Assembly: GCA_018302105.1 (NCBI GenBank)
Contig: JAGWAD010000023.1
Coordinates: forward strand, 10,405-74,404
DNA from: Candidatus Woesearchaeota archaeon
Lineage (GTDB): Archaea > Nanobdellota > Nanobdellia > SCGC-AAA011-G17 > GW2011-AR18
DNA length: 64,000 nt
Reading direction: 5' to 3'
Shown one piece after another: positions 15,001 through 18,000 of this stretch. The position numbers were made by a program. Numbering within the stretch: the stretch's first letter is position 1; each line of letters begins with the position of its first letter.

Positions 15001-18000
15001 TTTATTTGATAATTGGATTACCCTATTTTTTTCTTTTGGTTCTCCATATTTTAAAACTACCCCAAGACAATCCTTATTTTCAAGTGATTGGTAAGCTAAA
15101 GCAGCTTCGTCTATATTAAAAATTTTAGATATTAAAGGTTTAACATTTAATTCATGATTTTTTAATAAATCTAAAAATAATTCAATATTCCTGTTTTCTG
15201 TAAATCTGACATATTCAATAGGATAATCTATGTTATCAATTTCATATTTAGGATCATACCTTCCAGGACCATAACTTCGGGACATAAGAAGCTTTATTTC
15301 TTTAGAATAAAAAATACCCCAGTCTAAATTAAGGTTAACAAATCCAACAACAATAACCTTTCCGCGGTTTCTGCAGATTTTGCTAGCCAATTGTAAAACA
15401 GCACTGTCATTTGAAGAAGCACATACAAAAATTAAGTCTGCACCAATTTTATTTGTAAAATAATCAGTTTTATCTTCAGCTTCAGAAACAGTATACGCTT
15501 TTAATCCCATATTATTAACAATATCTACTCTCGAAGGATCTATATCAATTCCTAATGTATCAACACCAAAACACTTCAATAATTTCATAGTTAAAATACC
15601 TATTAATCCTAAACCTATTACTACTGCTTTCTCTCCTAAAATTGGTTCTGATTGATGTATAGAATGTAAAGAAACTGCACCAACTACAGAAAAAACAGCT
15701 TCTGTTAAATCAATTTTATCAGGAACCTTAACAACTAAATTACGCGGAACAGAAACAAATTCAGCATGATTTGCAAATCCAGTGCCGCCACAGCAGACAA
15801 TTTCACCAACGGAAATATCATTAACATTATTTCCAGCCTGTATGACTTTTCCAACAACACTATAACCTAAAGGAACAAGTTTATTCATTTTATTATCTAT
15901 ATAATTAAGAGTATAAGACAAACCATCTTTAATAATTTGTTCTGTTATTTTATTAACAAGAGTTTTTTTCTTCAAAAAGGCCTGTTTAAAATCAAAATTA
16001 CTTCCCTTAACAGCTCTCATTTCTGTACCTGAACTAATTAAAGAATAAGATACTTCTACTAAAACACTATTGGCATTGCAATAAGGTATAGGCAAATCCT
16101 TTATTACAATCTTTCCTTTCTGGGCAAAAACAGATTTCATTAAACAATCAAAAGATTATAACCATTTTTAAGATTATCGAATTTAAAATTCACTATATTT
16201 AATTATAAAAAGATTTAAAAATTAACATAGAATACAAAATAAGGAATAAAATGAAAAATTTTAATTATGATGTCGCAATTATTGGAGCATGTGGACACGT
16301 TGGTTTGCCATTAAGTTTAGTTTTAGCAAACGAAGGACTTAAAGTTCTAGGTTTAGATATAAATGAAGAAAGCATAAATAAAATTAAGAAAAAAATCATG
16401 CCTTTCCTTGAAGAAGGCTCGCAGGAATTGTTAAATAAAGTAATAGATAATACATTTTTTCTTTCTTTAGATCATAATAAAATATCAGAGTGTGAAAATA
16501 TAATAATAATAATCGGAACCCCGATAGATAGTGATTTTACTGTAGATTTATCAAAACTTATAAATTTAATAAAAAATTTAATGCCAAATCTTAAAGAAAA
16601 CCAATTAATTATTTTAAGAAGCACTTTAGCTCCTAAAACTACTGATTATATAAAAAATTTTATTGAAAATAACAGCAATTTTAAAATAGGAAAAAATTTG
16701 TTCCTTGCTACAGTCCCGGAAAGATTAACTCAGAATAATTCTATTAAAGAATTAAAAGAATTGTCTAATGTAATTGGAGTATATGATGATATAAGTTTTG
16801 AGAAAGTTAAAAATTTATTTACAAAACTTCATCCAGGAGTAACAAGAGTAACACCATTGGAAGCAGAATTAACTAAACTATTTAATAATAGTTATAGAGC
16901 TGCAAATTTTGCCTTAGCCAATGAATATTTTATAATTGCTGAAACTTTAGGAGCAAATTTTTATAAAATCAGGGAAGCAATGAATAATGGATATTCTAGA
17001 TCTAATGTTCCTAAACCTGGATTTACAAAAGGACCATGCCTTGGTAAAGATTCCTGGATATTATTAAACGCTATGCCACATTTCAATTTATCCACTACAA
17101 TGATTAGTGCTGCCTATAAAATTAATGAAGGTCTGCCTTTGTTTTTAGTTCAGAAATTAAAAGAAAAAGTAAATATCACAAACAAAAATATTGCAATATT
17201 AGGATTAACTTTTAAGAAAGATAGTGATGATTTAAGAGATAGTTTAAGCTTAAAATTAGTTAATCTTTTTAAAAATGAATTTGTGACTATAATTACACAC
17301 GACCCATTTGTTGACAATAAAAATATTAATAGTGTTCTATCAGATGCAGATATAGTTATTTTGGCTACAAATCATACATATTACGAAAACCTGGATTTTA
17401 AGAATTTAGTTAAGGAAAATTGTTTATTCGTAGATTTATGGGATGTTCTAAAGACAAGTTTATTTATATTTAATAAAGATAAATTACTAGAGAAAAAATA
17501 ATATGATAATTGGAGTTGGAGTTGATATTGAAAATATAAGTGAATTTAAGAAAAACATTAAAAATACTAAATTCATTAAAGAGATATTTACAAAAAAAGA
17601 AATAAAATATTGCATAAAGAAAAAAGAGCCTTGGATAAGTTTTGCAGGAAAATTTTGTGCCAAAGAAGCTGTGATTAAAGCATTTGGAAAGAAAATTGCA
17701 ATTAAAGAGATTGAAATATTAAATGATTTGAATAATAAGCCATTAATTTATATAAAAAGAAAGAAATTCGATAATATTAATTGTTCAATTGCTCATACAA
17801 ATAAAACAGCAATAGCATTTGTTGTATTAGAAAAATAATTGACTTCTGATAGATTCAGAATATCAAAAAAATGAGTTTTATAACCTCAGAAAAATTCTGC
17901 GAGACGTACCCCAAACCAATCATTCGCAAAAGCAGGAGACCCGTCCAAATCCAAGCTCAACCCAGAGCCCCAGCCACGAACGGCAGCTTTTCTTTCTAAA

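What the first reader, a model, noticed from the sequence alone, without database searches (positions are those of the whole stretch)
16251..17838. Bacterial-type holo-ACP synthase (AcpS) in an archaeon, coupled to a nucleotide-sugar dehydrogenase, with no carrier protein in view
The ORF has the full AcpS signature (GVDIENI, FCAKEA, SIAH) and starts 2 nt after the sugar-dehydrogenase stop. Archaea generally lack ACP-dependent fatty-acid synthesis. A PPTase in this context implies a phosphopantetheinylated carrier, perhaps for acylation or aminoacylation of a sugar or lipid, encoded elsewhere. The two small ORFs downstream (17886-18191 and 18254-18421) lack a clear DSL motif.
Basis: partly seen in the sequence, partly recalled or inferred. 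Interest (0 to 1): 0.55.

Follow-up and report, generated by a model that had tools for sequence, protein, structure and literature searches.

The report
Orphan holo-ACP synthase in Woesearchaeota
A small archaeon carries a genuine, intact enzyme that switches on carrier proteins, but unlike its 17 well-covered relatives it has no carrier gene nearby, so the enzyme either works on a carrier encoded elsewhere or is a leftover.

Summary
Window 16251-17501 encodes a nucleotide-sugar 6-dehydrogenase. One base after its stop codon, 17503-17838 encodes a 111-aa AcpS-type phosphopantetheinyl transferase with all family-invariant residues and a confident AcpS fold.

The contig is archaeal. GenBank already names this protein holo-ACP synthase (MBS3175058.1, Candidatus Woesearchaeota archaeon).

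The gene is not a one-off transfer. It belongs to a clade made up mainly of DPANN archaeal sequences, 46-62% identical to it. In all 25 relatives examined, AcpS lies beside carrier-protein cassette genes. All 17 relatives with at least 2.4 kb of flank have a carrier protein within 3.2 kb. The cassettes are FkbH+ACP (with or without a MaoC dehydratase and an SDR reductase), a 2-hydroxyacid-dehydrogenase/adenylation protein with ACPs, or E1/E2 with an ACP. They sit in surface-glycan loci.

The window is the only exception. It has no carrier or loader in 64 kb, nor in about 9 kb beyond its right end. Where relatives carry the cassette, it has a broken hypothetical gene.

Best reading: a functional transferase that primes carriers for hydroxyacyl decoration of glycans, with its carrier encoded elsewhere. 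The main rival is a relic left after cassette loss. This is a new member of a known kind, of modest interest.

The parts
16251..17501 (+). Nucleotide-sugar 6-dehydrogenase, 416 aa, closest to UDP-ManNAc dehydrogenases. It is the first gene of a two-gene unit with AcpS.
   Evidence: PF03721, PF00984 and PF03720 all match; TIGR03026 scores 300 bits against a cutoff of 190. The best solved relatives are the P. horikoshii UDP-ManNAcA dehydrogenase 4R16 (E 8e-50) and S. aureus Cap5O 3OJL (E 3e-49). Equivalog cutoffs are not reached (NF040825 scores 210 against 750), so the substrate is inferred only.
17503..17838 (+). AcpS-type (group I) 4'-phosphopantetheinyl transferase, 111 aa. It is intact and its ATG lies one base after the dehydrogenase stop codon.
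   Evidence: PF01648 at 61.6 bits and TIGR00516 at 66.2 bits (cutoff 59.8). All ten invariant columns of a 39-sequence family alignment are kept: G6 D8 E33 K54 E55 K59 A60 E71 S95 H98. The AlphaFold model has pLDDT 96.4, and Foldseek finds B. subtilis AcpS 1F7T at TM 0.85, E 5e-10. GenBank accession MBS3175058.1 is named holo-ACP synthase.
17886..18415 (-). Remains of one ~230-aa hypothetical gene found in DPANN metagenomes (seen as 101-aa and 55-aa ORFs). It occupies the slot where relatives such as L009/L018 and L172 carry the minus-strand carrier cassette.
   Evidence: Intact homologues of 225-238 aa exist: P0121 is 76% identical over 96% of the query, and P0123 is a Woesearchaeota hypothetical protein. 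In 8 other assemblies of this population the gene is split by one in-frame TAA into 73 + 150 aa. The window has a further 157-bp deletion. It shows no similarity to ACP, FkbH, MaoC or SDR and has no Pfam hit.
18539..19117 (+). Left-handed beta-helix (hexapeptide-repeat) acyltransferase with a hydrophobic N-terminus, 192 aa. A gene of this kind recurs next to AcpS cassettes in relatives.
   Evidence: PF00132 matches; the best NCBIfam hit is WbbJ-like at 54 bits, below its cutoff. Among about 170 loci, its best matches are hexapeptide genes beside AcpS in L172, L093, L016, L009 and L010 (E 4e-11 to 4e-7).

Best explanation
The 111-aa ORF is a functional AcpS-type phosphopantetheinyl transferase. 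It uses CoA to attach 4'-phosphopantetheine to a serine of small stand-alone carrier proteins. It belongs to a clade, made up mainly of DPANN archaeal sequences, whose members are built into surface-glycan gene clusters. There they prime carriers that are loaded with small hydroxyacyl units: glyceryl or lactyl through FkbH with a dehydratase and a reductase, a 2-hydroxyacyl unit through a 2-hydroxyacid-dehydrogenase/adenylation protein, or a unit supplied by an E1/E2 pair. An acyltransferase then passes the unit to a sugar or a lipid-linked glycan. In this Woesearchaeota genome AcpS has been separated from its cassette. It is probably co-transcribed with, and translationally coupled to, a UDP-ManNAc-type dehydrogenase inside a large N-glycan and polysaccharide locus. 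Its carrier substrate must therefore be encoded outside the ~73 kb examined. Shown here: enzyme identity, integrity, fold, clade membership, the conserved cassette linkage in relatives, and the absence of a carrier from the window. Inferred: activity, the nature of the acyl unit, the glycan as target, and the existence of a distant carrier.
For: AcpS identity and integrity rest. The archaeal host is shown. At least 29 contigs from independent assemblies carry the same arrangement, so it is not a chimera. In a neighbour-joining tree of 166 AcpS sequences, the window falls in a 25-member clade in which 23 members are cassette-linked; the other exception, L097, is a 1.2-kb contig. All 25 relatives at 46-62% identity have cassette genes beside AcpS, and all 17 with at least 2.4 kb of flank have an ACP within 3.2 kb. 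Pfam confirms FkbH_N, PP-binding, MaoC, adh_short, 2-oxoacid_dh, AMP-binding, E1_dh and Transketolase domains in these neighbours. The second carrier type, ACP_B, is a divergent ACP: hhalign gives 94% probability against ACP_A, and its only PDB hits are ACPs, the best at E 2.5e-5. The window locus is a glycan factory, with STT3/AglB, several PMT, GT2 and GT4 genes, a flippase, a carbamoyltransferase, methyltransferases and a cis-prenyltransferase. Literature: FkbH makes glyceryl-ACP (PMC7489565); a dehydratase-ketoreductase pair converts it to lactyl-ACP (PMC4765723); ACP cassettes occur in bacterial flagellin-glycosylation islands (PMC7099621, PMC7874193, PMC4875605); AcpS can prime an envelope-decoration carrier (PDB 7R49).
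Against: No carrier, FkbH, MaoC, SDR, CAT-like acyltransferase or adenylation gene is present in 64 kb, nor in about 9 kb beyond the right end. Yet every adequately covered relative keeps one within 3.2 kb. The gene next door is a pseudogene with strain-level decay, so the region may be degenerating. The population is about 99.9% clonal, so purifying selection on AcpS could not be tested. The rest of the genome could not be searched.
Confidence: 0.5

Rival explanations
1. Relic. The lineage lost the carrier cassette that once lay between AcpS and the hexapeptide acyltransferase. AcpS survives as an intact gene without a substrate, carried along in the dehydrogenase transcription unit.
For: The window is the only one of 18 adequately covered clade members without an adjacent ACP. 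The architecture AcpS(+), minus-strand block, hexapeptide acyltransferase(+) is the same as in L009/L018 and L172, but the block is a nonsense-interrupted hypothetical gene that has a further 157-bp deletion in the window. No cassette gene lies within ~73 kb.
Against: The AcpS ORF is full length, keeps every family-invariant residue and gives a very confident AcpS fold. It is tightly coupled to an intact dehydrogenase. No cassette remnants are detectable in the spacer. AcpS enzymes are commonly encoded apart from their carriers, for example E. coli acpS and acpP (own knowledge).
Confidence: 0.3
2. Housekeeping AcpS for a bacterial-type, ACP-dependent fatty-acid synthase acquired by this archaeon.
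For: DPANN MAGs have been reported to carry FabG, FabI, FabZ and ACP genes (PMC10936187). The closest solved relatives are FAS-associated AcpS enzymes.
Against: No ketosynthase, FabD, FabG/Z/I or ACP is in the window. In relatives the linked genes are FkbH, adenylation, E1/E2, MaoC and SDR genes in glycan clusters, and no ketosynthase was seen. Most archaea lack ACP-dependent fatty-acid synthesis (PMC3533463).
Confidence: 0.07
3. AcpS has been recruited to a non-canonical acceptor, such as a protein without a PP-binding domain or a glycan intermediate made by the coupled dehydrogenase.
For: There is only the unique one-base coupling to the dehydrogenase and the lack of any recognisable carrier.
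Against: There is no precedent for AcpS-type enzymes acting on such acceptors (own knowledge). The active-site and family residues are unchanged from cassette-linked relatives.
Confidence: 0.05
4. Artefact: a bacterial fragment mis-joined into an archaeal contig.
For: None beyond the bacterial flavour of the family.
Against: The same gene order occurs at 99.9-100% identity on many independently assembled contigs from ENA, JGI, NCBI and Logan. G+C content matches the contig, 26.5% for 16001-18000 against 26% overall.
Confidence: 0.01

Closest known systems
Bacterial AcpS, the group I phosphopantetheinyl transferase (B. subtilis 1F7L/1F7T, S. pneumoniae 1FTE, S. aureus 4JM7)
   Same: It has the same single ~115-aa domain and the same fold (TM 0.83-0.86). 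The Mg/CoA-binding Asp8 and Glu55 and Lys59 are conserved (equivalent to B. subtilis D8, E58 and K62, from own knowledge). It passes TIGR00516.
   Different: It is only 30-34% identical to these enzymes. The host is a Woesearchaeota archaeon with no fatty-acid synthase or ACP in view. Its clade is tied to glycan-cluster carrier cassettes rather than to fatty-acid synthesis.
AcpS priming the D-alanyl carrier protein DltC for envelope decoration (L. plantarum AcpS-DltC complex, PDB 7R49)
   Same: An AcpS-type enzyme serves a small stand-alone carrier whose cargo ends up on a cell-surface polymer. The structure is also a Foldseek hit.
   Different: No dlt genes are present. The carriers in relatives are of the ACP_A ('SWDSFN') and ACP_B ('NxSSIRFYQF') types, loaded by FkbH, an adenylation protein or E1/E2 rather than by DltA.
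FkbH + ACP glycerate-utilisation modules (glyceryl-ACP, and lactyl-ACP through a dehydratase-ketoreductase pair) of polyketide pathways
   Same: Relatives of this AcpS sit next to FkbH_N, an 80-aa ACP, a MaoC dehydratase and an SDR. These are the same parts that make glyceryl-ACP and lactyl-ACP (PMC7489565, PMC4765723).
   Different: No polyketide synthase is present and the context is glycosyltransferases. None of these parts is in the window itself.
ACP-containing flagellin and glycan modification islands of bacteria (C. jejuni cj1302 FkbH-domain gene; Aeromonas and Enterobacteriaceae islands with ACP, AMP-ligase, FabG and dehydratase)
   Same: Small carrier cassettes are embedded in glycan biosynthesis loci and are presumed to acylate sugars (PMC7099621, PMC7874193, PMC4875605).
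   Different: Those are bacterial. In the passages read, a dedicated AcpS was not mentioned as part of those islands. Here a dedicated AcpS is the conserved anchor, and the hosts are mainly DPANN archaea.
Sporadic archaeal ACP and ACP synthase acquired from bacteria (Lombard et al., reviewed in PMC3533463)
   Same: A bacterial-type ACP-processing enzyme is found in an archaeon.
   Different: It is not sporadic. It forms a coherent clade spread over Woese-, Pace-, Nano- and Aenigmarchaeota MAGs, with conserved non-FAS neighbours.

Membership tests
AcpS-type (group I) 4'-phosphopantetheinyl transferase | Match to curated family profiles above their cutoffs | tested here: met
   PF01648 at 61.6 bits against 25; TIGR00556 at 81.6 against 45.35; TIGR00516 at 66.2 against 59.8.
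AcpS-type (group I) 4'-phosphopantetheinyl transferase | Single domain of about 110-130 aa (not the ~230-aa two-domain Sfp type) | tested here: met
   The protein is 111 aa and matches the profile end to end, 1-109 of 111 positions.
AcpS-type (group I) 4'-phosphopantetheinyl transferase | Conserved Mg2+/CoA-binding Asp and Glu and the catalytic-site Lys | tested here: met
   D8, E55 and K59 are invariant in the 39-sequence alignment and present in the window protein. Their mapping to B. subtilis D8, E58 and K62 is from own knowledge.
AcpS-type (group I) 4'-phosphopantetheinyl transferase | AcpS alpha/beta fold | tested here: met
   The model has pLDDT 96.4 and pTM 0.89. The top 50 Foldseek PDB hits are all AcpS enzymes or FAS PPT domains, TM 0.76-0.87.
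AcpS-type (group I) 4'-phosphopantetheinyl transferase | Homotrimer with active sites at subunit interfaces | not tested
   Only a monomer was modelled.
AcpS-type (group I) 4'-phosphopantetheinyl transferase | Transfers phosphopantetheine from CoA to a serine of an apo-carrier | not testable with these tools
   This needs an enzyme assay.
AcpS-type (group I) 4'-phosphopantetheinyl transferase | A cognate carrier protein exists in the same genome | tested here: inconclusive
   None was found in the 64-kb window or about 9 kb beyond its right end.
DPANN cassette-linked AcpS clade (defined here) | AcpS sequence groups with the clade | tested here: met
   It is 46-62% identical to the clade members. 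In a neighbour-joining tree it nests in a 25-member clade of which 23 are cassette-linked.
DPANN cassette-linked AcpS clade (defined here) | Carrier protein (ACP_A or ACP_B) within a few kb of AcpS | tested here: not met
   All 17 relatives with enough flank have one within 3.2 kb, whereas the window has none.
DPANN cassette-linked AcpS clade (defined here) | Loader or tailoring genes (FkbH, adenylation protein, E1/E2, MaoC, SDR, CAT-like acyltransferase) adjacent | tested here: not met
   There are no hits in the window at E below 0.01.
UDP-glucose/GDP-mannose dehydrogenase family (nucleotide-sugar 6-dehydrogenase) | Three-domain architecture and the subfamily profile | tested here: met
   PF03721, PF00984 and PF03720 match, and TIGR03026 scores 300 bits against 189.8.
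UDP-glucose/GDP-mannose dehydrogenase family (nucleotide-sugar 6-dehydrogenase) | Substrate assignment (UDP-ManNAc dehydrogenase equivalog) | tested here: inconclusive
   NF040825 scores 210 bits against a cutoff of 750. The best PDB relatives are UDP-ManNAc dehydrogenases 4R16 and 3OJL.
Bacterial type II fatty-acid synthase system | Ketosynthase, FabD and ACP genes accompanying AcpS | tested here: not met
   None appears in the Pfam annotation of the window's genes.

The most novel reading that the evidence does not exclude
This Woesearchaeota lineage has no carrier protein at all. It has kept AcpS, fused into one translation unit with a UDP-ManNAc-type dehydrogenase, because the enzyme now puts phosphopantetheine on a non-canonical acceptor: a protein without a PP-binding domain, a glycan intermediate, or a carrier belonging to its host cell.
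Probability: 0.05. Interest if true: 0.8.

Novelty: new member of a known kind. Interest (0 to 1): 0.35.

Why it matters
For this window alone the result is modest. It is a correctly recognisable AcpS that GenBank already annotates. The wider pattern has more value. A clade of AcpS genes, mostly from DPANN archaea, is physically locked to three kinds of small hydroxyacyl-carrier generators inside surface-glycan loci. This means that the 'ACP genes' reported in DPANN genomes need not indicate bacterial-type fatty-acid synthesis. They may instead point to carrier-dependent acylation of the cell-surface glycans through which these episymbionts contact hosts. I found no paper linking FkbH to archaeal glycan clusters. 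The orphan AcpS in this genome is a natural test case for whether such transferases work on distant carriers or persist after the pathway is lost.

Tried and rejected
1. I searched the window for a carrier four ways: phmmer with E. coli AcpP, B. subtilis AcpA and DltC; a DS[LIVMF] motif scan; tblastn with relatives' ACP, FkbH, MaoC, SDR, CAT-like and adenylation proteins; and hmmsearch --max with ACP_A, ACP_B and combined ACP profiles. All gave only noise.

2. I tested whether the two small downstream ORFs are carriers or cassette remnants. They are not. They are pieces of an unrelated ~230-aa hypothetical gene.

3. I tested whether the G+C-rich island at 17881-18015 is a structured RNA. There is no Rfam hit above threshold (best E 0.68), no tRNA, and the fold z-scores are -2.1 and -0.3. 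I rejected it as an RNA gene.

4. dN/dS on AcpS between strains was not possible, because all assemblies are 99.9-100% identical.

5. I extended the view beyond the window. One look-up failed, probably on the start-codon choice. Another gave ~9 kb to the right with an integrase, an Asn-synthase-like gene and others, but no carrier.

6. The sigma-70 promoter and intrinsic-terminator scan is not informative for an archaeon and gave fewer hits than shuffles.

7. Immediate dehydrogenase-AcpS adjacency is not conserved in relatives. A dehydrogenase lies within 7 kb in four of them (L008, L011, L015, L016).

8. The bacterial donor of the clade could not be resolved. The nearest non-clade sequences are 44-48% identical and come from mixed phyla.
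Full report
**What is there**

The window is 26% G+C. ORF 16251-17501 (+) encodes a 416-aa nucleotide-sugar 6-dehydrogenase. It has all three UDPG_MGDP_dh domains and scores 300 bits on TIGR03026 against a cutoff of 190. Its closest solved relatives are UDP-ManNAc dehydrogenases: 4R16 at E 8e-50 and Cap5O 3OJL at E 3e-49. No equivalog cutoff is reached, so the substrate is only inferred.

The dehydrogenase stop codon TAA is at 17499-17501. One base later, at 17503, starts a 111-aa ORF (17503-17838). This ORF passes PF01648, TIGR00556 and the acpS model TIGR00516, the last at 66.2 bits against a cutoff of 59.8. 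It matches solved AcpS enzymes by sequence, for example B. subtilis 1F7L at E 2e-11. It keeps all ten invariant columns of a 39-member family alignment, including D8, E55 and K59. Its model has pLDDT 96.4, and the top 50 structural neighbours are all AcpS enzymes or the PPT domains of fungal FAS, with TM up to 0.87.

**Host and reality of the locus**

The window carries archaeal markers: RNase P Pop5 and Rpp30 subunits, DUF357, an STT3/AglB oligosaccharyltransferase and TrmB. GenBank holds the identical proteins as MBS3175058.1 'holo-ACP synthase' and MBS3175057.1 'nucleotide sugar dehydrogenase', both from Candidatus Woesearchaeota archaeon. The same gene order is found at 99.9-100% identity on dozens of independently assembled contigs. 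A chimeric assembly is therefore excluded.

The surroundings form a large surface-glycan locus. It contains many GT2 and GT4 glycosyltransferases, several PMT-family enzymes, a flippase, GT4-family Glycos_transf_4, a carbamoyltransferase, methyltransferases, radical-SAM enzymes, a polysaccharide deacetylase, a cis-prenyltransferase and AglB.

**No carrier in view**

Four kinds of search found nothing above noise (best E 0.017-0.3):
- phmmer with classical ACPs and DltC;
- a motif scan;
- tblastn with relatives' proteins;
- hmmsearch --max with clade-specific profiles over all six-frame ORFs.

About 9 kb beyond the window's right end, read from a longer contig of the same population, also holds no carrier.

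**What relatives show**

The protein search returned 364 homologues. The top ~70 are 49-63% identical, and where a source names them they are Nanoarchaeota or Aenigmarchaeota MAG proteins. In species-representative genomes, the eight best loci carry archaeal MAG labels: five are named Woese-, Pace- or Nanoarchaeota and three carry an 'uncultured Methanosarcinales' label. Identity then drops to 45% or less in bacteria.

I examined the neighbourhoods of 25 relatives at 46-62% identity, using Pfam and locally built profiles. Every one has carrier-cassette genes directly beside AcpS. All 17 with at least 2.4 kb of flank have an ACP within 3.2 kb. By contrast, most loci with bacterial housekeeping-type AcpS (45% identity or less) lack these genes.

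Three cassette types recur:
1. FkbH_N (560-600 aa) plus an 80-aa ACP with the motif 'SWDSFN', with or without a MaoC dehydratase, an SDR and a 209-aa CAT-like 2-oxoacid_dh-family acyltransferase.
2. A 935-aa 2-hydroxyacid-dehydrogenase/AMP-binding protein plus a di-ACP, MaoC, the CAT-like acyltransferase and a 75-78-aa second carrier, ACP_B.
3. An E2-like protein (lipoyl domain plus catalytic domain) with ACP_B in L011 and L017, and E1 alpha and beta as well in L011. In the short contig L171 only the E2-like gene is in view.

ACP_B is not recognised by Pfam. It is nevertheless a divergent ACP: hhalign gives 94% probability against ACP_A, with the invariant serine aligned to the attachment serine, and a profile search of the PDB returns only ACPs, the best at E 2.5e-5.

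A neighbour-joining tree of 166 AcpS sequences puts the window protein inside a 25-member clade. Of these, 23 are cassette-linked. The only other exception is a 1.2-kb contig. One member, L008, lies near a sigma-70 ECF gene and may be bacterial, so the cassette probably moves between domains.

**Inferred mechanism for the clade**

FkbH-like enzymes load glycerate from 1,3-bisphosphoglycerate onto an ACP (PMC7489565). A dehydratase-ketoreductase pair turns glyceryl-ACP into lactyl-ACP (PMC4765723). The parts next to these AcpS genes match that logic.

The context is glycosyltransferases, PMT enzymes, flippases and hexapeptide or CAT-like acyltransferases. It resembles bacterial flagellin and glycan modification islands that carry ACP, AMP-ligase, FabG, dehydratase or FkbH-domain genes (PMC7099621, PMC7874193, PMC4875605).

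The clade's AcpS is therefore best read as the dedicated primer of carriers that deliver small hydroxyacyl groups to surface glycans or lipid-linked intermediates. This chemistry is inferred, not shown. It is not fatty-acid synthesis: no ketosynthase accompanies any of these loci. That agrees with the view that archaea generally lack the ACP system (PMC3533463). It also offers another reading of the 'ACP pathway' genes reported in DPANN MAGs (PMC10936187).

**What is special in this window**

AcpS is present but its partners are not. Relatives such as L009/L018 and L172 have the order AcpS(+), minus-strand cassette, hexapeptide acyltransferase(+). The window has AcpS(+), a 0.7-kb spacer, then a hexapeptide acyltransferase(+) at 18539-19117. 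Across all loci, that acyltransferase's best matches are the hexapeptide genes beside AcpS in relatives.

The spacer's two small minus-strand ORFs are fragments of one ~230-aa hypothetical gene. Intact homologues of 225-238 aa exist, one at 76% identity. In eight other assemblies of this population the gene is interrupted by one in-frame TAA. In the window it has lost a further 157 bp between short direct repeats. The slot therefore holds a decaying gene, with no detectable trace of the cassette.

Immediate coupling of AcpS to a dehydrogenase is unique to this lineage. A nucleotide-sugar dehydrogenase does lie within 7 kb in four relatives.

**Verdict**

Two explanations remain. I prefer, at about 0.5, a functional AcpS whose carrier lies elsewhere in the genome. 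The gene is intact with every conserved residue, and it is tightly coupled to an intact enzyme. AcpS enzymes often act on unlinked carriers and on several carriers at once; relatives encode two or three carriers per locus.

The rival, at about 0.3, is a relic that survived loss of the cassette. The window's unique lack of partners and the decay next door support it.

The population is clonal, so selection could not be measured, and the rest of the genome was out of reach. A profile scan of the full MAG would settle the matter.

A fatty-acid role (0.07), a non-canonical acceptor (0.05) and an assembly artefact (0.01) are minor options.

**Novelty**

The gene is a new member of a known kind and is already labelled in GenBank. 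The link between a largely DPANN AcpS clade and glycan-cluster carrier cassettes appears not to have been described. A search for FkbH together with archaea returned nothing relevant. That link is the more interesting by-product. I set overall interest at 0.35.

Noticed in passing
window 17886-18415 (-); L001 10384-11070 (-): The two small ORFs are one broken ~230-aa hypothetical gene of a family found in DPANN metagenomes. Eight other assemblies of this population have an in-frame TAA, and the window alone has an extra 157-bp deletion flanked by AATAATT repeats. An intact copy at 76% identity (P0121) sits beside ribosomal proteins L39e and S19e on a 28.5% G+C contig from a sample that also holds this population.
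   Followed up: yes
window 17881-18015: This is the strongest G+C island in the window, 56% against a mean of 26%. It lies in the 3' end of the broken gene. It has no Rfam or tRNA hit and no convincing fold (z -2.1 and -0.3). It may be a recently acquired foreign segment.
   Followed up: partly
window 20238-21275 (-): The leucine-rich-repeat surface protein varies in length between assemblies of the same population, 345 aa against 378 aa, a 99-bp difference. This suggests repeat-number variation.
   Followed up: no
L011 10345-15025 (Woesearchaeota JACPBQ010000004.1): AcpS lies next to a complete E2 (lipoyl, E3-binding and catalytic domains), E1 beta, E1 alpha, a divergent ACP (ACP_B) and a nucleotide-sugar dehydrogenase. 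The arrangement recalls E1/E2 + ACP systems that make glycolyl-ACP in some nonribosomal peptide pathways (own knowledge).
   Followed up: partly
L008 6603-7163: A sigma-70 ECF-type gene lies 3 kb from an AcpS that is 55% identical to the window's. This contig may be bacterial, which would imply that the cassette is exchanged between DPANN archaea and bacteria.
   Followed up: no
window 14050-16140 (-): A 696-aa fusion of a zinc-type alcohol dehydrogenase with a Gfo/Idh/MocA oxidoreductase is divergently transcribed from the dehydrogenase-AcpS pair. It is followed by a 360-aa protein with no family match, a B12-binding radical-SAM enzyme and an amine-oxidase-like flavoprotein.
   Followed up: no
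L180 11500-14844 (about 0.8-4.2 kb beyond the right end of the window): A tyrosine recombinase/integrase gene and a 692-aa asparagine-synthase/diphthamide-synthase-like fusion flank the end of the glycan locus.
   Followed up: no
window 50051-52051 (+): A 666-aa ORF with a GTG start inside the glycan locus has no Pfam match at all.
   Followed up: no
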